Below, one piece after another: positions 1 to 40,720 of a stretch of DNA of 43,714 nt. Below the pieces are notes generated by a model. It made no database searches. It was not told the DNA's origin and worked only from the letters and a program-made list of their open reading frames with translations. Location: sequence record OP018999.1; one strand, given 5' to 3'. The number at the start of each line of letters is the position of its first letter. Position 1 is the first letter of the stretch. The DNA is from Escherichia phage NTNC80A. Both the position numbers and the translations under genes were made by a program.

Positions 1-819
1 GTGGCTAGCGAGTTCGAGAATGGTAGGCTGATTGCGTACGATTTGTCTCAGACCCAAGGGTACACGGGGAATATGCGGTCTGCTGTGTCTGACATGCAGT
101 TCCATTCCACTAATATTGAAGGCTTCACACCACGGGACTTCTTCTATGACCTAGGACACTTCCCTACCTCTTACACTAATGGTTCTTTTATCATGAAGCA
201 TTGGCGAGAAAAAGACTTACAGGTACAATGGTATAATGGTAAAGCATTCATACGGCTACATGAAGAAGATGGCCGTGTAACACTTACCAGTAAAGAGGGC
301 CTCGCTTTGTATGACTTTCGTGCTACAAAAGACGTGACGTTCAAGGGTCGCAACTTTGTATTCAAAAACGATGCAAGTGCAGACGTATTGAAGTGGTTCG
401 GCGGTTCAGGAAATATCTCCACGAAAGGCAACATCTCACCTATGGTAGATGGGGTTCCCTCTCTAGGTACAAATTCCTATCGCTGGGGTGCAGTGCATTC
501 AGTAAATGGGACGTTACAAACCTCTGATGGTAGGCTAAAGGAAATACATGATATTAAACAAGAAGAACTTGATGCTGGGCTTGAATTGTCAGCAAGCCTA
601 ATCAAATATCGTTGGGATGGAGGAGAAAAGTTCCACTTTGGTTGTATCGCCCAAGAGGTAATGTTAATCATGGAGAAACATAAGCTAGACCCATTACAGT
701 ATGGAATGGTTCAGTATGATGAAGAGGCAGACATCTTTAGTGTAAACTACGCTGAATTGAACAGCTTCTGCATCGCAGCTCTGTCTAGGAGGTTGAATGC
801 CATTGATCAAATCAGTTAA
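1..819 (+). CDS. tail fibre / receptor-binding protein with C-terminal intramolecular-chaperone (peptidase S74-like) domain
   Basis: ORF starts with GTG at base 1 and ends TAA 817-819. C-terminal ~100 aa carry SDGRLKEI...FHFGCIAQEV...YAELNSF, the Ser-Lys autocleaving chaperone signature of phage fibres/endosialidases. The 5' end may be cut by the window; no SD is visible across the circular junction. Confidence 0.6.
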   Translation: MASEFENGRLIAYDLSQTQGYTGNMRSAVSDMQFHSTNIEGFTPRDFFYDLGHFPTSYTNGSFIMKHWREKDLQVQWYNGKAFIRLHEEDGRVTLTSKEGLALYDFRATKDVTFKGRNFVFKNDASADVLKWFGGSGNISTKGNISPMVDGVPSLGTNSYRWGAVHSVNGTLQTSDGRLKEIHDIKQEELDAGLELSASLIKYRWDGGEKFHFGCIAQEVMLIMEKHKLDPLQYGMVQYDEEADIFSVNYAELNSFCIAALSRRLNAIDQIS

Positions 820-946
820 GCAAAGTGCTGTACGCCAGAACACAGAAGAACTTATTCAATCAGGACGTGACCCTAAGCAGGCCTATGCCATTGCCAAGGA
901 TGTACAACGTCGTGCCATGAAGAAACCTTCTGCATCTTCTGCGTAG
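797..946 (+). CDS. hypothetical small basic protein (49 aa), last ORF before putative genome terminus
   Basis: ATG 797 follows an in-frame TGA; stop TAG 944-946. Overlaps the 3' end of the fibre ORF in another frame. Product MPLIKSVKQSAVRQNTEELIQSGRDPKQAYAIAKDVQRRAMKKPSASSA. No clear SD. Confidence 0.3.
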   Translation: MPLIKSVKQSAVRQNTEELIQSGRDPKQAYAIAKDVQRRAMKKPSASSA

Positions 947-1099
947 CAGGTAATATCTTAGTGTACACAAGGGCAGGCTTAGGTTTGCCCTTAGTGTATT
1001 CCAAAGGAGGTGGTATGTTATCTTTGTTGTGTATACTCAGTGATGTACTAGGTCGTAAGAGGTACATTCTTAGTGAAGACCAAATAAGGGATGAGAAGA

Positions 1100-1363
1100 T
1101 ACGGAGGTCGCTCACAAAGTAACCAAAGTCAAAATTTTGATGTAGGCGTGTGTCAGCTCTCTCGCCCTCGCCCTCGCCGGGACGTCCCCATAGGGTGCCT
1201 AGGCATTTCTAGGGCAGCGGGAGGGCCGCCACGGGCCTTTCTTAGTGAGGGCCAAAGGTTGCCTAGGCTAGCCGGAGGAGGGCCGAGGAGGGCCATTCAG
1301 GGCCGCTTGACAGCGTGTGTGGGCGTGGGCTATCTGTCCGTTTGTCGCTACGCTCCGCACTCA
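1100..1363. other. GC-rich repetitive tract, candidate terminal-repeat / concatemer-junction region
   Basis: Abrupt GC-rich non-coding DNA with short repeats (CTCGCC x3, GCCTAGG x2, GAGGGCC x3) between the last late gene and the first early promoter, where T7-group genomes carry their terminal redundancy. Confidence 0.35.
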
Positions 1364-1659: not shown

Positions 1660-1675
1660 GTCTCACATGTTAGAC
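1660..1675. repeat. imperfect copy (15/16) of the 16-bp palindrome GTCTCACATGTGAGAC
   Basis: Sequence gtctcacatgtTagac. Confidence 0.5.
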
Positions 1676-4212: not shown

Positions 4213-6840
4213 ATGCAAGATTTACACGCTATCCAGCTTCAACTAGAGGAAGAAATGTTTAACGGCGGTATTCGCCGCTTTGAAGCAGACCAACAGCGCC
4301 AAATTGCATCGGGTAATGAATCCGATACGGCTTGGAATCACCGCTTGTTGTCTGAGCTAATCGCGCCTATGGCTGAAGGTATTCAGGCTTACAAGGAAGC
4401 CTACGAAGGCAAGAAAGGACGCGCACCGCGTGCACTGGCTTTCATTAACTGCGTAGAGAACGAAGTGGCAGCATATATCACGATGAAAATCGTAATGGAT
4501 ATGCTTAACACTGATGTAACCTTGCAAGCCATAGCAATGAATGTAGCTGACCGCATCGAAGACCAAGTACGCTTCAGCAAGCTGGAAGGTCACGCCGCCA
4601 AATATTTTGAGAAAGTTAAGAAGTCACTCAAGGCAAGTAAGACTAAATCATATCGCCATGCGCACAATGTAGCTGTAGTGGCTGAGAAGTCAGTTGCCGA
4701 ACGTGACGCAGACTTCTCCCGCTGGGAAGCGTGGCCTAAGGATACCTTGCTACAAATCGGGATGACCTTGCTCGAAATACTGGAGAATAGTGTATTCTTC
4801 AACGGGCAGCCTGTTTTCCTACGCACCTTGCGTACTAATGGCGGCAAACACGGCGTTTACTACTTACAGACCAGTGAACACGTAGGCGAGTGGATAACTG
4901 CCTTCAAAGAGCACGTAGCGCAACTGAGTCCGGCCTATGCACCTTGCGTTATCCCTCCGCGTCCGTGGGTGTCACCTTTTAACGGCGGTTTTCACACTGA
5001 GAAAGTAGCAAGCCGCATCCGTCTGGTAAAAGGCAACCGTGAGCACGTCCGTAAGCTAACCAAAAAGCAAATGCCTACGGTCTATAAGGCTGTTAATGCT
5101 TTACAGGCTACGAAATGGCAGGTTAACAAGGAAGTGTTACAGGTTGTGGAAGACGTAATACGGCTTGATTTGGGCTATGGTGTGCCTTCCTTTAAGCCAC
5201 TCATCGACCGTGAGAACAAGCCAGCTAACCCCGTGCCTGTTGAGTTCCAACATTTGCGCGGTCGTGAGTTGAAAGAAATGCTAACGCCGGAGCAGTGGCA
5301 AGCCTTCATCAACTGGAAGGGCGAATGCACCAAGCTATACACCGCCGAAACTAAGCGCGGCAGTAAGTCGGCAGCTACCGTTCGCATGGTTGGACAAGCC
5401 CGAAAATACAGCCAGTTTGACGCGATCTACTTCGTGTATGCACTGGACAGCCGAAGCCGCGTTTATGCGCAATCTAGCACGCTTTCCCCGCAGTCTAACG
5501 ACTTAGGCAAGGCATTGCTCCGTTTTACCGAAGGGCAGACTATAGACAGCGCTGAGGCGCTTAAGTGGTTTTTGGTGAACGGGGCTAATAACTGGGGTTG
5601 GGATAAGAAAACTTTTGACGTGCGCACTGCTAACGTGCTGGATGGAGAGTTTCAAGATATGTGCCGCGATATTGCAGCCGACCCGCTGACTTTCACTCAA
5701 TGGGTAAATGCTGATTCTCCTTATGGATTCCTTGCGTGGTGCTTCGAGTACGCTCGTTATTTAGATGCACTGGATGAAGGTACACAGGACCAATTCATGA
5801 CGCACCTACCAGTACACCAAGATGGTAGTTGTTCTGGTATCCAGCACTATAGTGCAATGCTACGTGATGAGGTAGGCGCGAAGGCGGTAAACCTTAAGCC
5901 TTCCGACTCGCCGCAAGATATTTATGGGGCGGTGGCGCAAGTAGTTATCCAGAAGAATTACGCTTACATGAATGCAGACGACGCAGAGACTTTTACGTCT
6001 GGAAGCGTAACACTTACAGGTGCAGAACTGCGTAGCATGGCGAGCGCATGGGATATGATAGGAATCACTCGCGGCTTAACCAAAAAGCCGGTAATGACCT
6101 TGCCTTACGGATCCACTCGCTTAACCTGCCGTGAGTCAGTGATTGATTATATCATTGATTTGGAAGAAAAAGAGGCGCAGAGAGCTATTGCAGAAGGGCG
6201 GACGGCTAATCCGGTGCACCCTTTTGATAATGACCGCAAAGACTACCTAACACCTGGTGCAGCTTACAACTATATGACTGCTTTAATTTGGCCTTCTATT
6301 TCTGAGGTTGTTAAAGCACCTATAGTGGCGATGAAGATGATTCGTCAGCTTGCACGTTTTGCAGCTAAAAGAAATGAAGGCTTAGAATATACCCTACCTA
6401 CTGGCTTCATCTTGCAACAAAAGATAATGGCTACCGATATGCTTCGTGTATCCACTTGCTTGATGGGTGAGATCAAGATGAGTCTACAGATTGAGACGGA
6501 TGTAGTTGATGAAACGGCAATGATGGGCGCTGCCGCTCCTAACTTTGTTCACGGGCACGATGCTAGTCACCTTATATTAACGGTATGTGACCTAGTTGAT
6601 AAAGGGATTACATCTATTGCGGTCATCCATGACTCTTTCGGGACTCATGCAGGCCGCACCGCAGACCTGCGGGATAGCTTAAGGGCAGAAATGGTTAAGA
6701 TGTATCAAGGCCGTAATGCTTTACAGCAACTGCTGGATGAGCATGAAGAGCGTTGGCTAGTAGATACTGGCATCCAAGTGCCAGAGCAAGGGGAGTTTAA
6801 TCTTGAAGAGATATTAGTTTCTGACTATTGCTTTGCATAA
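4213..6840 (+). CDS. single-subunit DNA-directed RNA polymerase, SP6-type
   Basis: 875 aa; start [24 protein letters not shown] and motifs [33 protein letters not shown] match SP6 RNAP as recalled; end ...YCFA. Its specificity fits the promoters in this window. Confidence 0.97.
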
Positions 6841-6848
6841 TACTAATA

Positions 6849-6878
6849 GGCCATTCCTTCGGGAGTGGCCTTTTCTTT
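6849..6878 (+). terminator. intrinsic terminator after the RNAP gene
   Basis: ggccattcc-ttcg-ggagtggcc: 9-bp stem with UUCG tetraloop, then TTTTCTTT. Confidence 0.7.
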
Positions 6879-6913
6879 ACCTACTACCTGTAACATTTCA
6901 TTAACATAAACGT

Positions 6914-6929
6914 GTCTCACATGTGAGAC
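6914..6929. repeat. 16-bp perfect palindrome GTCTCACATGTGAGAC
   Basis: Exact palindrome ending 2 nt before the phage promoter at 6932. Confidence 0.8.
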
Positions 6930-6931
6930 TT

Positions 6932-6954
6932 ATTTACCGGACACTATAGGAGAG
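6932..6954 (+). promoter_or_regulatory. phage RNAP promoter (SP6-type)
   Basis: atttaccggacactataggagag; +1 G at 6949. Confidence 0.7.
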
Positions 6955-7095
6955 CCGTCGGAGACGGGAAAGAAAGGGAATATAAAGAATATAAAGGAAG
7001 TAATAGGTATTAAAGGTTATATAGGATTACCTAGGAATACCTATTACCTTCTTCCTTCCTCTTATTACTACTTAGAGGAAGGGCAGACCTAGGTC
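6955..7095. other. AT/purine-rich inter-promoter region, candidate primary origin of replication
   Basis: Region with inverted repeat aggaagtaataggtat / atacctattaccttcttcct, bracketed by two phage promoters just downstream of the RNAP gene; same position as the T7 primary origin. Confidence 0.35.
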
Positions 7096-7111
7096 GTCTC
7101 ACATGTGAGAC
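7096..7111. repeat. 16-bp perfect palindrome GTCTCACATGTGAGAC
   Basis: Exact copy, 5 nt upstream of the promoter at 7117. Confidence 0.8.
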
Positions 7112-7116
7112 TTCGT

Positions 7117-7139
7117 ATTTACCAGACAGTATAGATAAG
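7117..7139 (+). promoter_or_regulatory. phage RNAP promoter (variant)
   Basis: atttaccagacaGtatagataag; +1 G at 7134. Confidence 0.6.
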
Positions 7140-7164
7140 ACTAACTTACTTTGGAGATTTAACC

Positions 7165-7293
7165 ATGCGTAACTTTGAAAAGATGACCCGTAAAGCTAAC
7201 CGTTTCGACATGGAAGAAGGGCAGAAGAAAGGCAAGAAGCTGAATAAACCTGTCCGTGACCGTGCATCTAAACGCGCTGCGTGGGAGTTCTAA
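7165..7293 (+). CDS. small basic protein (42 aa), T7 gp1.1-like
   Basis: MRNFEKMTRKANRFDMEEGQKKGKKLNKPVRDRASKRAAWEF; same length and N-terminus (MRNFEKM) as T7 gp1.1 as recalled; SD GGAGA 7 nt upstream. Confidence 0.6.
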   Translation: MRNFEKMTRKANRFDMEEGQKKGKKLNKPVRDRASKRAAWEF

Positions 7294-7296
7294 GTT

Positions 7297-9285
7297 ATGG
7301 CTATTATTCAGAATGTACCGTGTCCTGCTTGCCAAAAGAACGGACATGATATTACTGGCAATCATTTAATGATCTTTGACGATGGGGCAGGATACTGTAA
7401 CCGTGGTCACTTCCATGATAACGGTAAACCTTATTACCACAAGCCGGAAGGTGGCATCGAGATAACCGAGTTACCTATTACTGGCAATATCAAATATACA
7501 CCTTCTCAATTCAAAGAAATGGAGAAGGAAGGGAAGATAAGCGACCCTAAGTTGCGCGCCATCGCACTTGGTGGTATGCGTATGAAAGACCGTTGGGAGG
7601 TTATGAATGAGCAAGAAAGGGCAGACCAAGAAGCCGAGTGGAAACTCGATGTTGAATGGTTCCTCACGCTTAAGCGTAAGAACCTTGTATCCCGTCACAT
7701 TCGAGGCGACATCGCTGCAATGTATGATGTGCGCGTCGGACATGATGAAGAAGGCCGAGTCAACCGTCACTACTATCCTAGATACGAAAAGGGTGTGCTC
7801 GTGGGAGCAAAGTGCCGGACGCTGCCGAAGGATTTTAAGTTCGGTCACTTAGGTAAACTCTTTGGTATGCAAGACCTTTTCGGGATGAACACTTTGTCTC
7901 ACGTGTTAGACAAGGGAAGACGAAAGGATTGCTTGCTTATTGTAGGTGGTGAACTGGATGCACTAGCAGCGCAGCAGATGCTCCTTGATTCTGCCAAGGG
8001 TACTAAGTGGGAAGGTCAGCCATACCACGTGTGGTCTGTCAACAAAGGTGAATCTTGCCTTGAAGAGATAGTGCAAAACCGTGAACACATCGCCCAATTC
8101 AAGAAGATTATCTGGGGCTTCGATGGTGATGAGGTAGGACAGAAGCAGAACCAGCAAGCGGCTCGCCTGTTTCCCGGCAAATCCTATATCCTTGAGTACC
8201 CTTCTGGTTGCAAAGATGCCAACAAGGCATTGATGGCTGGCAAGGCTAAAGAATTTGTGGATGCTTGGTTTAATGCAAAGTCATCTGATGAAGTCTTTGG
8301 TAGCCAGATTAAATCTATCGCATCTCAAAGGGATAAGCTCAAGGCTGCACGTCCAGAACAAGGGCTGTCATGGCCTTGGCCTAAGCTAAACAAGGTAACG
8401 CTAGGTATTCGTAAGAACCAACTTATCATTGTAGGCGCAGGCTCTGGTGTAGGTAAGACTGAGTTCCTTCGTGAAGTAGTTAAGCACCTCATTGAAGAAC
8501 ACGGTGAATCTGTAGGCATCATTTCTACAGAAGACCCGATGGTCAAGGTGTCCCGTGCTTTTATCGGTAAGTGGATTGATAAGCGTATTGAGTTACCGCC
8601 AACCAACGACCCGAAAGAAGATGGATACCGTGAGGTGTTCGACTACACCGAGGAAGAAGCTAACGCCGCCATTGATTATGTAGCTGATACAGGTAAGCTG
8701 TTTGTAGCTGACCTAGAGGGTGACTATTCGATGGAAAAGGTAGAGCAAACTTGCCTAGAGTTTGAGGCTATGGGCATTTCTAATATCATCATTGATAACT
8801 TAACGGGGATTAAATTAGATGAGCGTGCTTTTGGTGGGAAGGTTGGTGCACTTGATGAATGCGTCAAGCGGATTGGTACTATCAAAGACCGACACCCGGT
8901 TACTATATTCCTTGTATCACACCTTACACGTCCTCCGGCAAACCGTACCCAACACGAAGAAGGTGGCGAGGTTATCCTTTCTGACTTCCGAGGCTCAGGC
9001 GCTATCGGATTCTGGGCATCTTACGCCTTGGGGATTGAGCGTAACACAAGAGCTGAAACGCTTGACGAAAGGACTACCACGTACATCTCATGTGTCAAAG
9101 ACCGCGACCAAGGTATCTACACTGGAACCAAGGTCATGCTTAAGGGTGACATTCAAACCGGACGTTTAATGGAACCACAAGCCCGTACTAAGTCATTTGA
9201 TACAGGTGAAGCAAGGCAACAAGAAGTGCCGGATTTACCGGACACTATAGAAGAGACAACCTTTGACGATGAACAGGAGTTTTAA
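7297..9285 (+). CDS. DNA primase/helicase (T7 gp4-like)
   Basis: N-terminal zinc ribbon CPACQKNG...CNRGH, Walker A GAGSGVGKT, acidic C-terminus ending DDEQEF. Confidence 0.95.
   Translation: MAIIQNVPCPACQKNGHDITGNHLMIFDDGAGYCNRGHFHDNGKPYYHKPEGGIEITELPITGNIKYTPSQFKEMEKEGKISDPKLRAIALGGMRMKDRWEVMNEQERADQEAEWKLDVEWFLTLKRKNLVSRHIRGDIAAMYDVRVGHDEEGRVNRHYYPRYEKGVLVGAKCRTLPKDFKFGHLGKLFGMQDLFGMNTLSHVLDKGRRKDCLLIVGGELDALAAQQMLLDSAKGTKWEGQPYHVWSVNKGESCLEEIVQNREHIAQFKKIIWGFDGDEVGQKQNQQAARLFPGKSYILEYPSGCKDANKALMAGKAKEFVDAWFNAKSSDEVFGSQIKSIASQRDKLKAARPEQGLSWPWPKLNKVTLGIRKNQLIIVGAGSGVGKTEFLREVVKHLIEEHGESVGIISTEDPMVKVSRAFIGKWIDKRIELPPTNDPKEDGYREVFDYTEEEANAAIDYVADTGKLFVADLEGDYSMEKVEQTCLEFEAMGISNIIIDNLTGIKLDERAFGGKVGALDECVKRIGTIKDRHPVTIFLVSHLTRPPANRTQHEEGGEVILSDFRGSGAIGFWASYALGIERNTRAETLDERTTTYISCVKDRDQGIYTGTKVMLKGDIQTGRLMEPQARTKSFDTGEARQQEVPDLPDTIEETTFDDEQEF
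9233..9255 (+). promoter_or_regulatory. phage RNAP promoter embedded in the 3' end of the helicase gene
   Basis: atttaccggacactatagaagag; +1 G at 9250; simultaneously encodes DLPDTIEE. Confidence 0.6.
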
Positions 9286-9463: not shown

Positions 9464-9479
9464 GTCTCACATGTGAGAC
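9464..9479. repeat. 16-bp perfect palindrome within an extended hairpin
   Basis: gcttgtctcaca/tgtgagacaggc gives a ~12-bp stem, followed by CTCTTATT; could act as a terminator or processing site. Confidence 0.7.
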
Positions 9480-10890: not shown

Positions 10891-10922
10891 GGTTGTCCAA
10901 CGTGTTGGACAGCCTCTTTATC
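10891..10922 (+). terminator. hairpin with U-rich tail upstream of the DNA polymerase gene
   Basis: ggttgtccaa-cgtg-ttggacagcc stem-loop followed by TCTTTATC. Confidence 0.45.
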
Positions 10923-14165: not shown

Positions 14166-14188
14166 ATTTACTGGACACTATAGAAGGA
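14166..14188 (+). promoter_or_regulatory. phage RNAP promoter (consensus)
   Basis: atttactggacactatagaagg; +1 G at 14183. Confidence 0.75.
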
Positions 14189-14250
14189 AAGCCTAGGTAG
14201 TATAGGTTTATAAGGTAGTATAGGTAATTAAGTAAATATAGGAGATATAA
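14189..14250. other. AT-rich leader with direct repeats, candidate secondary origin
   Basis: aggtagtataggt occurs twice in tandem (cctAGGTAGTATAGGTttataAGGTAGTATAGGTaatt) directly after a promoter. Confidence 0.3.
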
Positions 14251-14252
14251 AT

Positions 14253-14630
14253 ATGTCTATGGTAACTACTCTGGTATTCGTGGCTCAATACTTTCGTGGC
14301 TTATCTAATAAGTTTAAGCAGAAGGCTATCTTTGCAATTCAAGAGCGTATCAACAAAATTGAAGAAGAACAAGTAGATGTAGAAGAACATCGTAGTTCTC
14401 AAATGATTGACTGCCACAATCGCTACTATACATCTCGTGATGACCTGAATGAACGTCAAGTCAAAGAGGTAGAAGAGATGATGGCACGTCACCAGCAAGA
14501 GCGGGACAATCTGGAAGCTACCTTCGAAGAGAACAAGGCATCAATTGCCCTTGTACATCAGGCTGCATCTGACAGTCTGAAGAAAGAGATTGTTATGCTG
14601 GAAATTGAACTTGATAACCTGACTAAGTAA
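14253..14630 (+). CDS. hypothetical protein (125 aa), coiled-coil-rich
   Basis: ORF track; SD AGGAGA; hydrophobic N-terminus then charged helical sequence. Confidence 0.6.
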   Translation: MSMVTTLVFVAQYFRGLSNKFKQKAIFAIQERINKIEEEQVDVEEHRSSQMIDCHNRYYTSRDDLNERQVKEVEEMMARHQQERDNLEATFEENKASIALVHQAASDSLKKEIVMLEIELDNLTK

Positions 14631-16513: not shown

Positions 16514-16520
16514 AGTCTCA
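16505..16520. repeat. 16-bp perfect palindrome GTCTCACATGTGAGAC
   Basis: Exact copy, 15 nt upstream of the promoter at 16536. Confidence 0.8.
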
Positions 16521-16535
16521 CATGTGAGACAAATC

Positions 16536-33375: not shown

Positions 33376-33391
33376 GTCTCACATGTGAGAC
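33376..33391. repeat. 16-bp perfect palindrome (18 bp with flanks)
   Basis: tGTCTCACATGTGAGACa between two internal virion protein genes. Confidence 0.8.
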
Positions 33392-40572: not shown

Positions 40573-40595
40573 ATTTACTGGACACTATAGGAGGA
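40573..40595 (+). promoter_or_regulatory. phage RNAP promoter (consensus)
   Basis: atttactggacactataggagg; +1 G at 40590. Confidence 0.75.
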
Positions 40596-40720
40596 AGACC
40601 AAGAGAATAAAGGAATATTATAGGATAATATAGGATTACCTAGGTTATAGGTATACCTTAGTATGGGTGTACTCCTGTACACCCTATTCCTACTTACTTA
40701 TACTAATATCATAGGAGGTA
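40596..40720. other. AT-rich leader sharing ATAGGATTACCTAGG with the 7021-7035 region; candidate secondary origin
   Basis: Exact 15-mer at 40630-40644 and 7021-7035, both just downstream of a phage promoter. Confidence 0.3.

What the first reader, a model, noticed from the sequence alone, without database searches (positions are those of the whole stretch)
6930..7140. Candidate primary origin: two tandem phage promoters flanking an AT/purine-rich inverted-repeat region
The layout is RNAP gene, terminator, palindrome plus promoter (6932), ~140 bp AT/purine-rich DNA with an inverted repeat, palindrome plus promoter (7117), then the gp1.1-like gene. This matches the position of the T7 primary origin between its two phi1.1 promoters. 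Here each promoter is additionally preceded by the 16-bp palindrome.
Basis: partly seen in the sequence, partly recalled or inferred. Interest (0 to 1): 0.55.

Follow-up and report, generated by a model that had tools for sequence, protein, structure and literature searches.

The report
Tandem-promoter control region after phage RNAP gene
This is the conserved non-coding control region that follows the RNA polymerase gene of a K1-5/SP6-like coliphage; it sits where phage T7 has its main replication origin and is a reasonable but unproven origin candidate, and most of the features that looked origin-like recur elsewhere in the genome.

Summary
The layout is RNAP gene, rho-independent terminator, 16-bp palindrome, phage promoter P1 (+1 about 6949), a 165-nt non-coding stretch, the same palindrome, promoter P2 (+1 about 7134), a T7 gene-1.1 homologue, then primase/helicase. 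The window is a Vectrevirus (K1-5/K1E-like) genome.

The origin reading is only partly supported. The gene order matches T7 gene 1 / phi1.1A / phi1.1B / gene 1.1. But T7's AT-rich segment lies downstream of both promoters; a hairpin lies between them.

Here the inter-promoter stretch is a conserved structured leader: a 5' stem-loop, six AGG-centred ~9.5-nt repeats, an 18-bp hairpin and a 9-bp hairpin. A 60-bp core has 23% GC.

None of these features is specific to this site. The palindrome belongs to a family of eight syntenic copies that behave like +-strand hairpins. AGG arrays also follow promoters at 14166 and 40573. Other promoters have equally AT-rich leaders. GC skew is uninformative.

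Best reading: the SP6-group counterpart of the T7 phi1.1A-R1.1-phi1.1B module, probably also the first-used transcription-primed origin (about 0.5). Nothing here tests replication.

The parts
4213..6840 (+). Phage single-subunit RNA polymerase gene (context, left flank)
   Evidence: ORF. Homologues are annotated as RNA polymerase. The C-terminal 199 aa give a tblastn match to T7 RNAP at 31.5% identity, E = 6e-21.
6848..6880 (+). Rho-independent terminator: 10-bp stem with TTCG loop, then TTTTCTTT. Probably the early terminator for host RNA polymerase.
   Evidence: Terminator scan. The stem is kept by compensatory changes in SP6, L018, Kp7, Tapenade and PST_H2.
6881..6913 (+). Conserved pyrimidine/AT-rich block (ACCTACTACCTGTAACATTTCATTAACA...). 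It is partly complementary to the AGG array downstream of P1.
   Evidence: Near-identical in K1-5, SP6 and the Klebsiella-phage group. Inverted-repeat pairs I8 and I11.
6914..6929 (.). Palindrome 1, GTCTCACATGTGAGAC. One of 8 family copies in the window.
   Evidence: Present before P1 in every relative examined, with paired changes of both half-sites.
6932..6954 (+). Phage promoter P1 (SP6/K1-5 type), +1 about 6949
   Evidence: Exact match to the window's promoter consensus. Present at the same place in all relatives, including phages with other promoter specificities.
6955..6967 (+). 5' stem-loop of the P1 transcript (CCGUC-GGA-GACGG)
   Evidence: Predicted in every fold. Compensatory GC-to-AU changes in 4 of 22 sequences and other double changes.
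6972..7038 (+). Array of six AGG-centred repeats at 9-10 nt spacing (WAWAGGWWR; one unit degenerate in this genome). It is the most purine-rich stretch of the genome and has a 23% GC core.
   Evidence: There are 5-8 repeats at this place in all 22 relatives. A chain of 5 or more arises in 2 of 200 genome shuffles.
6994..7053 (+). Long hairpin (18-nt arms 6994-7011 and 7036-7053). Candidate RNase III-type processing or stability element.
   Evidence: It folds at -20.2 kcal/mol with z = -3.1. A 17-22-bp stem forms at the same place in SP6, ULIP33, L018, L020, L023 and L024 from different sequences.
7054..7082 (+). Second hairpin (9-bp stem CCUUCCUCU/AGAGGAAGG)
7096..7111 (.). Palindrome 2, identical to palindrome 1
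   Evidence: Present before P2 in the Vectrevirus, SP6 and Klebsiella-phage groups; absent in L023, L024, Kp7 and L027.
7117..7139 (+). Phage promoter P2, +1 about 7134. It departs from the consensus in a conserved way (G at -5 here; TATTG in the SP6 group).
   Evidence: This segment is 98% identical across Vectrevirus relatives.
7165..7293 (+). gp8, homologue of T7 gene 1.1 (right flank). Shine-Dalgarno GGAG at 7153-7156.
   Evidence: Pfam PF08200 Phage_1_1, E = 8.2e-16, 58.6 bits against a cut-off of 21.
7297..9285 (+). Primase/helicase gene. It holds an in-frame copy of the palindrome family at 7896-7911.
   Evidence: Annotation of homologues. Palindrome copy.

Best explanation
This is the SP6/K1-5-group counterpart of the T7 gene 1 to gene 1.1 intergenic module (phi1.1A, R1.1 hairpin, phi1.1B).

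Host RNA polymerase stops at the terminator at 6848-6880. The newly made phage RNA polymerase then starts at two tandem promoters that drive gp8 and the primase/helicase gene. P2 gives a short 30-nt leader. P1 gives a leader of about 215 nt that contains:
- a protective 5' stem-loop;
- a purine-rich tract of six AGG repeats;
- an 18-bp hairpin, a likely RNase III-type processing or stability site placed where T7 has R1.1;
- a 9-bp hairpin;
- one copy of a genome-wide palindromic hairpin element.

I think it most likely that the same module is also the first-used, T7-type transcription-primed replication origin. In that model P1 transcripts running into the easily melted, purine-rich tract at 6969-7028 stay hybridised and are extended by the phage DNA polymerase. 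P1 would have priority because it is the first such promoter to enter the cell, right after the RNAP gene.

Shown: the anatomy, its conservation and the synteny with T7. Inferred: RNase III cleavage, primer formation and primacy as an origin.
For: Synteny with T7:
- RNAP lies upstream and a Phage_1_1 homologue downstream.
- The T7 record shows two promoters at 5848 and 5923 with a hairpin between them and gene 1.1 at 6007.
- The site is 13% from the physical left end, against 14.7% in T7.

Conservation:
- The whole module (terminator, palindrome, P1, 5' hairpin, AGG array, pyrimidine-rich complement, P2) recurs in 22 or more relatives across several genera, including phages whose promoters have other specificities.
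- Within Vectrevirus the non-coding segments are 89-100% identical, while the flanking coding DNA is 84-95% identical.

Structure:
- The P1 leader folds with z = -3.2.
- Seven divergent leaders all give a 5' hairpin plus a 17-22-bp stem.
- The 5' hairpin shows compensatory changes.

Origin-compatible composition:
- A 60-bp tract of 23% GC starts 20 nt after P1, at the 0.05% quantile.
- AT-rich DNA downstream of a promoter is what marks T7 phi1.1B, OL, 6.5 and OR in the benchmark.
- T7 origins are phage promoters (PMC8373140).
- Two tandem promoters with no gene between them are hard to explain by gene expression alone.
Against: - No replication data exist for this phage group in anything I could read.
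- A held paper relays that the SP6 genome paper placed a bidirectional origin at the DNA polymerase gene.
- The AT-rich tract lies between the promoters, not after both as in T7. P2 has only a 30-nt leader of 37% GC.
- Promoters at 14166, 40573 and 25205 have leaders with an equally weak or weaker duplex (quantile 0.002-0.005). Two of them carry the same AGG array. So nothing in the sequence singles this site out except its position.
- The RNA:DNA-hybrid advantage of the P1 leader does not mark the real T7 primary origin in the benchmark.
- Within Vectrevirus, three variants break a pair of the long stem without compensation.
- GC skew shows no inflection.
Confidence: 0.5

Rival explanations
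1. It is a transcription and RNA-processing module only. The two promoters and the structured leader set the level, timing and stability of the gp8 and primase/helicase mRNA, through a 5' stem-loop, SD-like AGG repeats acting as ribosome standby or stabilising sequences, and an RNase III-type hairpin. Replication starts elsewhere, or with no preference at any promoter that has an AT-rich leader.
For: - AGG arrays also sit in the leaders of promoters 14166 and 40573, where they run straight into a Shine-Dalgarno sequence and start codon. The same holds for SP6 12542 and 37773 and for ULIP33 39502.
- 5' hairpin covariation and G.U-tolerant stems point to selection at the RNA level.
- Other promoters have equally AT-rich leaders.
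- A published suggestion places the SP6 origin elsewhere.
Against: - It does not explain why a promoter with a 215-nt untranslated leader is kept immediately upstream of a second promoter for the same genes in every relative.
- The same arrangement in T7 is an experimentally defined origin (PMC8373140).
- I could not reproduce any GC-skew signal at the SP6 polymerase gene.
Confidence: 0.35
2. It is a protein-bound DNA element. The AGG repeats, phased at about 9.5 bp, act as iteron-like sites, and the two flanking palindromes act as operators for a dimeric phage protein. That protein would switch P1 and P2 off or on, or organise an initiation complex, possibly by looping the 166 bp between the two identical palindromes.
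For: - The AGG period is close to one helical turn.
- The two flanking palindromes are identical, and three family copies lie 2-15 bp upstream of promoters.
- A copy inside the primase ORF follows the genome's own palindrome type and changes an amino acid, SHVLD versus SNVLD.
- The exact 16-mer is at chance level in bacterial genomes, so any binding protein would be phage-encoded rather than a host regulator.
Against: - No DNA-binding domain was found in ten early/middle proteins.
- The palindrome-to-promoter distance varies: 2 versus 9 bp at P1, and 5, 7 or 15 bp elsewhere.
- Both palindrome types coexist in one genome (window 10895; PST_H2).
- One relative has a 17-bp version with an extra central base.
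- Imperfect copies favour G.T (11) over A.C (2) on the + strand, and the intercistronic copies extend into 13-bp stems with G.U pairs. That fits a single-strand hairpin better than a duplex operator.
- Palindrome 2 is missing in several relatives.
Confidence: 0.1
3. Palindrome 1 pairs with palindrome 2 in read-through RNA. This would form a 16-19-bp processing stem that excises the P1 leader, in the way RNase III stems flank rRNA.
For: The minimum-free-energy fold of 6841-7133 pairs the two palindromes (-96.4 kcal/mol, z = -6.1).
Against: - This pairing follows automatically from two identical self-complementary 16-mers.
- It is lost in PST_H2, where the two types differ at 4 of 16 positions.
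- It is impossible in L023, L024, Kp7 and L027, which lack palindrome 2.
- Local hairpins would form first during transcription.
Confidence: 0.04

Closest known systems
Phage T7 primary origin of replication (promoters phi1.1A and phi1.1B plus the AT-rich tract, between gene 1 and gene 1.1)
   Same: - Same flanking genes: RNAP upstream and a gene 1.1 homologue downstream.
- Two tandem phage-RNAP promoters with no gene between them.
- Similar distance from the left end (13% versus 14.7%).
- An AT-rich tract downstream of a promoter.

   Different: - In T7 the AT-rich tract follows the second promoter. Here it follows the first, and P2 is only 30 nt from the start codon.
- The promoters are 185 bp apart rather than 75 bp.
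- A host terminator sits directly after the RNAP gene, whereas in T7 TE is at 7588.
- Palindromes and the AGG array have no T7 counterpart.
- Origin function is demonstrated in T7 and untested here.
T7 R1.1 RNase III processing site (the hairpin between phi1.1A and phi1.1B)
   Same: A conserved hairpin in the transcript of the first promoter, located between the two promoters.
   Different: There is no sequence similarity. Here the stem is longer, nearly perfect and AU-rich (18 bp), without the internal loop typical of T7 sites. Cleavage is untested. That R1.1 occupies this position in T7 is from my own knowledge (Dunn and Studier 1983), not from a tool.
T7 secondary origins (phiOL, phi6.5, phiOR: a promoter plus AT-rich DNA)
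   Same: The window has three promoters followed by AT-rich AGG arrays (6932, 14166, 40573). That is the same recipe as the T7 secondary origins, which score alike in the duplex-stability benchmark (PMC8373140).
   Different: Whether any of these sites fires is unknown. In this phage the arrays at 14166 and 40573 are also mRNA leaders of genes.
R-loop-primed origins (ColE1 RNA II; mitochondrial heavy-strand origin)
   Same: It might work in a similar way: a purine-rich transcript over an easily melted template gives a stable RNA:DNA hybrid. The P1 leader is the most hybrid-favouring promoter-proximal segment in the window.
   Different: The index uses nearest-neighbour values recalled from memory, and it does not mark the T7 primary origin. 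No RNase H processing site or G-run is evident.
Dispersed intergenic palindromes that act as mRNA hairpins (REP-like elements, intercistronic stabilisers)
   Same: The family has eight copies, mostly intergenic. Stem positions covary, and G.U pairs are tolerated on the transcribed strand.
   Different: The copies are syntenic across genera rather than mobile. GTC/GAC and AC/GT are invariant. One copy lies inside a coding region. Three copies abut promoters.

Membership tests
T7-type transcription-primed origin | One or more promoters for the phage's own RNA polymerase | tested here: met
   P1 matches the window's promoter consensus exactly and P2 has 2 mismatches. There are 11 matches against 0.02 expected. 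Both are conserved in relatives.
T7-type transcription-primed origin | AT-rich, easily melted tract immediately downstream of the promoter | tested here: inconclusive
   Met for P1 only with a 20-nt offset: 6969-7028 has 23% GC, but +6 to +65 is at quantile 0.058. Not met for P2. Three other promoters meet it as well or better.
T7-type transcription-primed origin | Position between the RNAP gene and the gene 1.1 homologue, about 15% from the left end | tested here: met
   Pfam Phage_1_1 on gp8. RNAP upstream. 13% from the inferred physical end.
T7-type transcription-primed origin | Replication actually initiates there (RNA-to-DNA transition, replication bubble, copy-number peak) | not testable with these tools
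   GC skew is monotonic and uninformative in the window, SP6 and ULIP33. No experimental paper on this group was found in the held library.
E. coli RNase III substrate (T7 R1.1-like) | Transcribed hairpin with about two helical turns of double-stranded RNA | tested here: inconclusive
   The stem is 18 bp with one or two irregularities, plus an apical 4-bp stem. Relatives have 17-22 bp. Substrates shorter than about 22 bp bind weakly (PMC1540722).
E. coli RNase III substrate (T7 R1.1-like) | Favourable proximal and distal box base pairs, and cleavage by RNase III | not tested
   The box positions cannot be placed without a mapped cleavage site. This needs an in vitro cleavage assay or an rnc- comparison.
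Iteron-type origin | Direct repeats of about 17-22 bp bound by a dedicated initiator (Rep) protein encoded nearby | tested here: not met
   The repeat unit is 9-10 nt. Arrays recur in mRNA leaders elsewhere. No Rep-like or DNA-binding domain was found in neighbouring proteins.
Known RNA family (Rfam 15) | Match at or above a family's gathering score | tested here: not met
   The best matches are 21.8 bits against thresholds of 41-85.
Operator of a host transcription factor | The same palindrome recurs in host chromosomes | tested here: not met
   The exact 16-mer occurs in 75 stretches of 596 Gb, about chance level, with one Enterobacteriaceae hit. Degenerate host sites are not excluded.

The most novel reading that the evidence does not exclude
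SP6-like phages may carry an undescribed two-part cis code.

(1) AGG-repeat, purine-rich tracts placed right after three promoters (6932, 14166, 40573) could be primer or R-loop-forming tracts that define one primary and two secondary origins.

(2) A family of eight syntenic GTC-YM-AC...GT-KR-GAC hairpins, one of them inside the primase gene, could be read on the single-stranded + strand or on RNA by a phage factor. Such a factor might process transcripts or mark sites during replication.

In that reading the two palindromes bracketing the P1 leader would delimit the origin unit.
Probability: 0.12. Interest if true: 0.6.

Novelty: new member of a known kind. Interest (0 to 1): 0.35.

Why it matters
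If replication does start here, T7-style transcription-primed initiation at tandem promoters after the RNAP gene would be ancestral to two subfamilies of Autographiviridae. The SP6 group would then offer a second, differently built example, with the AT-rich tract between the promoters rather than after them.

K1-5, K1E and SP6-like phages are used in therapy and as engineering chassis, so there is a practical side. The 300-bp region is more conserved than the genes around it and should not be disturbed casually. Its promoters and leader are ready-made parts.

The palindrome family and the AGG-repeat leaders are conserved non-coding elements with no assigned function. Both are easy to test.

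Tried and rejected
- **GC and AT skew as an origin locator.** Cumulative skew is monotonic in the window, SP6 and ULIP33, so it is uninformative.
- **RNA:DNA-hybrid advantage as an origin predictor.** The P1 leader scores best among promoters. But the index puts the true T7 primary origin at the unfavourable extreme, so I do not use it as evidence.
- **Rfam.** No family matched.
- **Host-factor operator.** The exact palindrome is at chance frequency in 185,579 bacterial genomes.
- **Palindrome-binding protein.** Pfam and PHROGs on ten early/middle proteins gave only ocr and Phage_1_1.
- **Long-range pairing of palindrome 1 with palindrome 2.** It is predicted but not conserved.
- **Consensus structure of the long hairpin from a MAFFT alignment.** The repeat array makes the alignment unreliable, so I relied on per-sequence folds.
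- **Small ORF or sigma-70 promoter in the leader.** None found.
- **Literature.** The SP6 and K1-5 genome papers and the T7 origin papers are not held. No held paper contains either palindrome sequence. I therefore cannot say whether the original genome papers already noted the tandem promoters, the palindrome or an origin proposal at this site.
- **A first BLAST-based conservation table.** It was wrong because alignment records overwrote locus records. It was redone.

Full report
**What the window is.** The 801 bases around the finding are 91-95% identical to 77 records of K1-5/K1E-like coliphages (Vectrevirus, Autographiviridae, Molineuxvirinae). The intergenic part alone is recognisably conserved, at about 70% identity, in Salmonella phage SP6 and a group of Klebsiella phages. 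The window is circularly permuted relative to the physical genome. The SP6 left end aligns to window 1158, so the region lies about 5.8 kb, or 13%, from the inferred left end.

**Check of the observation.**
- The RNAP ORF is 4213-6840.
- A 10-bp GC-rich hairpin at 6848-6871 is followed by TTTTCTTT.
- The perfect palindrome GTCTCACATGTGAGAC is at 6914-6929 and 7096-7111, with 7 copies at up to 3 mismatches against 0.14 expected.
- SP6-type promoters are at 6932-6949 and 7117-7134, among 11 matches against 0.02 expected.
- An inverted repeat has arms 6994-7011 and 7036-7053.
- The ORF at 7165-7293 matches Pfam Phage_1_1 at E = 8e-16.
- The primase/helicase gene starts at 7297.

'AT/purine-rich' is true only of part of the stretch. 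The 146 bp as a whole have 39% GC, which is unremarkable. The core at 6969-7028 has 23% GC, and the first 70 nt are the most purine-rich stretch in the genome at 78.6%. The 3' half is the pyrimidine-rich complement. There is no credible ORF and no sigma-70 promoter inside.

**Anatomy of the inter-promoter stretch.** As RNA from P1, the 185 nt fold well (-55 kcal/mol, z = -3.2) into four parts:
- a 5-bp 5' stem-loop at 6955-6967;
- an 18-bp hairpin at 6994-7053;
- a 9-bp hairpin at 7054-7082;
- the palindrome hairpin.

Overlapping the first half is an array of AGG trinucleotides spaced 9-10 nt apart. Every one of 22 distinct relatives has 5-8 such repeats at this place, with AGG almost invariant and the surrounding bases variable. 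A chain of five or more arises in only 2 of 200 shuffles of the whole genome.

**Conservation.** I collected the homologous region from 22 distinct sequences and from more distant relatives: Klebsiella phage Kp7, Erwinia phage Tapenade, Salmonella phage PST_H2, L023, L024 and L027. The order recurs throughout: terminator, palindrome, P1, 5' stem-loop, AGG array, pyrimidine-rich complement, P2, gene 1.1 homologue. This holds even where the promoter sequence shows a different polymerase specificity (L020, L023, L024, Kp7).
- The terminator stem and the 5' stem-loop are kept by compensatory changes.
- Seven divergent leaders, folded on their own, each give the 5' stem-loop and a 17-22-bp stem built from different sequences (z from -1.5 to -4.6).
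- Within Vectrevirus the non-coding segments are 89-100% identical, while the flanking RNAP and primase coding DNA is 84-95% identical. The region is therefore under selection.
- Three Vectrevirus variants do break one pair of the long stem without compensation.

**Comparison with T7.** The annotated T7 record places phi1.1A at 5848, phi1.1B at 5923 and gene 1.1 at 6007. Reading the sequence, the AT-rich tract lies after phi1.1B. The 57 bases between the promoters fold into a hairpin, which from my own knowledge is the R1.1 RNase III site. The closest T7 counterpart of the inverted repeat here is R1.1, not the AT-rich initiation zone. T7 origins are phage promoters, primary at phi1.1A/B and secondary at phiOR and phi6.5 (PMC8373140).

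**Is this site special as an origin candidate?** I benchmarked two simple indices on T7.
- Weak DNA duplex in the 60 nt after a promoter picks out phiOL, phi1.1B, phi6.5 and phiOR (quantiles 0.001-0.007).
- An RNA:DNA-hybrid advantage index does not: phi1.1B is at the unfavourable extreme.

Applied to the window, the validated criterion picks promoters at 14166, 40573 and 25205 (0.002-0.005). It picks P1 only if the GC-rich 5' stem-loop is skipped.

The AGG array is also not unique. Arrays of five or more repeats lie directly after promoters 14166 and 40573. They also follow SP6 promoters 12542 and 37773 and ULIP33 promoter 39502, where they run into a ribosome-binding site. Those leaders are little structured. 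So composition supports 'a possible origin' but not 'the origin'.

What singles this site out is its position. It has T7 synteny. It carries two tandem promoters with no gene between them. It is also the first such promoter behind the RNAP gene, and so the first available to the new polymerase; that last point is an inference from T7 biology.

GC skew is monotonic and gives no information. One held paper relays that the SP6 genome paper suggested a bidirectional origin at the DNA polymerase gene (PMC4837284). I could not read the original or reproduce any signal there.

**The palindromes.** They are not origin-specific. The family GTC-NN-AC-NN-GT-NN-GAC has eight copies in the window: 1660, 6914, 7096, 7896, 9464, 10895, 16515 and 33376. 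The pattern scan gave 17 strand-matches, nearly all the two strands of these eight sites, against 0.62 expected. The copies sit at places that are syntenic in SP6 and ULIP33.
- SP6-group genomes carry GTCCAACGTGTTGGAC or GTCTAACGTGTTGGAC in place of GTCTCACATGTGAGAC. Both half-sites have changed together.
- Over 77 distinct instances, pair 4-13 is C-G 40, U-A 24, U-G 11 and other 2. Pair 5-12 is A-U 54, C-G 17 and other 6.
- Overall, 77% of cells are paired, against at most 40.5% when the partner is slid. No shuffle out of 500 reaches the observed covariation. The outer and inner invariant pairs were fixed by the search pattern; positions 4, 5, 12 and 13 were not.
- Imperfect copies favour G.T (11) over A.C (2) on the + strand.
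- The intercistronic copies (9464, 10895, 33376) extend into 13-bp stems with G.U pairs that covary with SP6.
- Both types coexist in one genome (window 10895; PST_H2), and one relative has a 17-bp version.

All this fits a hairpin on the transcribed strand, as RNA or single-stranded DNA, better than a duplex operator. The exact 16-mer is at chance level in bacterial genomes, which argues against a host operator.

The copy inside the primase ORF follows the genome's own type and changes an amino acid, SHVLD versus SNVLD. What the element does is unknown. Palindrome 2 is absent in several relatives, so the 'palindrome plus promoter' pairing is not obligatory.

**Verdict.** The region is the SP6-group counterpart of the T7 phi1.1A-R1.1-phi1.1B module. 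It is a conserved tandem-promoter control region with a structured non-coding leader.

I put about 0.5 on it also being the first-used transcription-primed origin. I put 0.35 on a purely transcriptional and RNA-processing role, with replication starting elsewhere or at several promoters. I put about 0.1 on a protein-bound DNA array.

This is a new member of a known kind and of modest interest. The unexplained palindrome family and the AGG-repeat leaders are the parts most worth an experiment.

Noticed in passing
window 1660-1675, 6914-6929, 7096-7111, 7896-7911, 9464-9479, 10895-10910, 16515-16530, 33376-33391: A family of eight 16-bp palindromes (GTC-YM-AC-NN-GT-KR-GAC) sits at places that are syntenic in SP6 and Klebsiella phage K1-ULIP33. 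Stem positions 4/13 and 5/12 covary, and G.T is favoured over A.C on the + strand. Copies at 9464, 10895 and 33376 cap 13-bp stems with G.U pairs. Function unknown.
   Followed up: yes
window 7896-7911 (inside the primase/helicase ORF): An in-frame palindrome copy is conserved at the same codons in all relatives. It follows each genome's own palindrome type and changes the protein (SHVLD here, SNVLD in the SP6 and Klebsiella-phage groups).
   Followed up: partly
window 14183-14255 and 40590-40700; L003 12560-12630 and 37790-37860; L004 39520-39600: The same AGG-centred ~9.5-nt repeat arrays lie directly downstream of two other phage promoters in this genome, and of their counterparts in SP6 and K1-ULIP33. 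Together with the P1 leader they are among the most AT-rich spots in the genome.
   Followed up: partly
window 1-1332: The window is permuted relative to the physical genome. The SP6 left end aligns to window 1158, and the SP6 right end (including its 174-bp terminal repeat) aligns to 789-1332. The first ~1.1 kb therefore belongs to the right end. The stretch 1200-1330 is a GGAGG/GGGCC-rich repeat region.
   Followed up: partly
window 6881-6913: The block ACCTACTACCTGTAACATTTCATTAACA, between the terminator and palindrome 1, is nearly invariant from K1-5-like to SP6-like and Klebsiella phages. It is partly complementary to the AGG array on the other side of P1. No function assigned.
   Followed up: no
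window 14869, 20145, 32196 versus 6932, 9233, 14166, 16546, 25205, 40573, 42899: Two promoter subtypes coexist: ATTTAC(C/T)GGACACTATAG at most sites and (A/C)(A/T)TTAGGTGACACTATAG, the SP6 consensus, at three sites. P2 carries a conserved G at -5 in Vectrevirus, and TATTG replaces TATAG in the SP6 group.
   Followed up: no
L234 (Salmonella phage PST_H2) 1000-1480; L021 950-1400; L027; L036 (Erwinia phage Tapenade) 2103-2546: Extra DNA is inserted at different points of the module. In PST_H2 about 450 bp lie between the leader and palindrome 2/P2, and the AGG array is expanded to more than ten repeats. In L021, L027 and Tapenade an extra gene lies between P2 and the gene 1.1 homologue or primase (annotated as an HNH homing endonuclease in Tapenade). 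The P1-leader unit stays intact in all of them.
   Followed up: partly
L045, L055-L057, L061, L062, L069, L077, L081, L082, L089, L092, L094, L110 (one Patescibacteria MAG, JAHISE01): The exact 16-mer GTCTCACATGTGAGAC occurs on at least 14 contigs of a single Patescibacteria metagenome-assembled genome. This looks like an unrelated repeat family of that genome.
   Followed up: no
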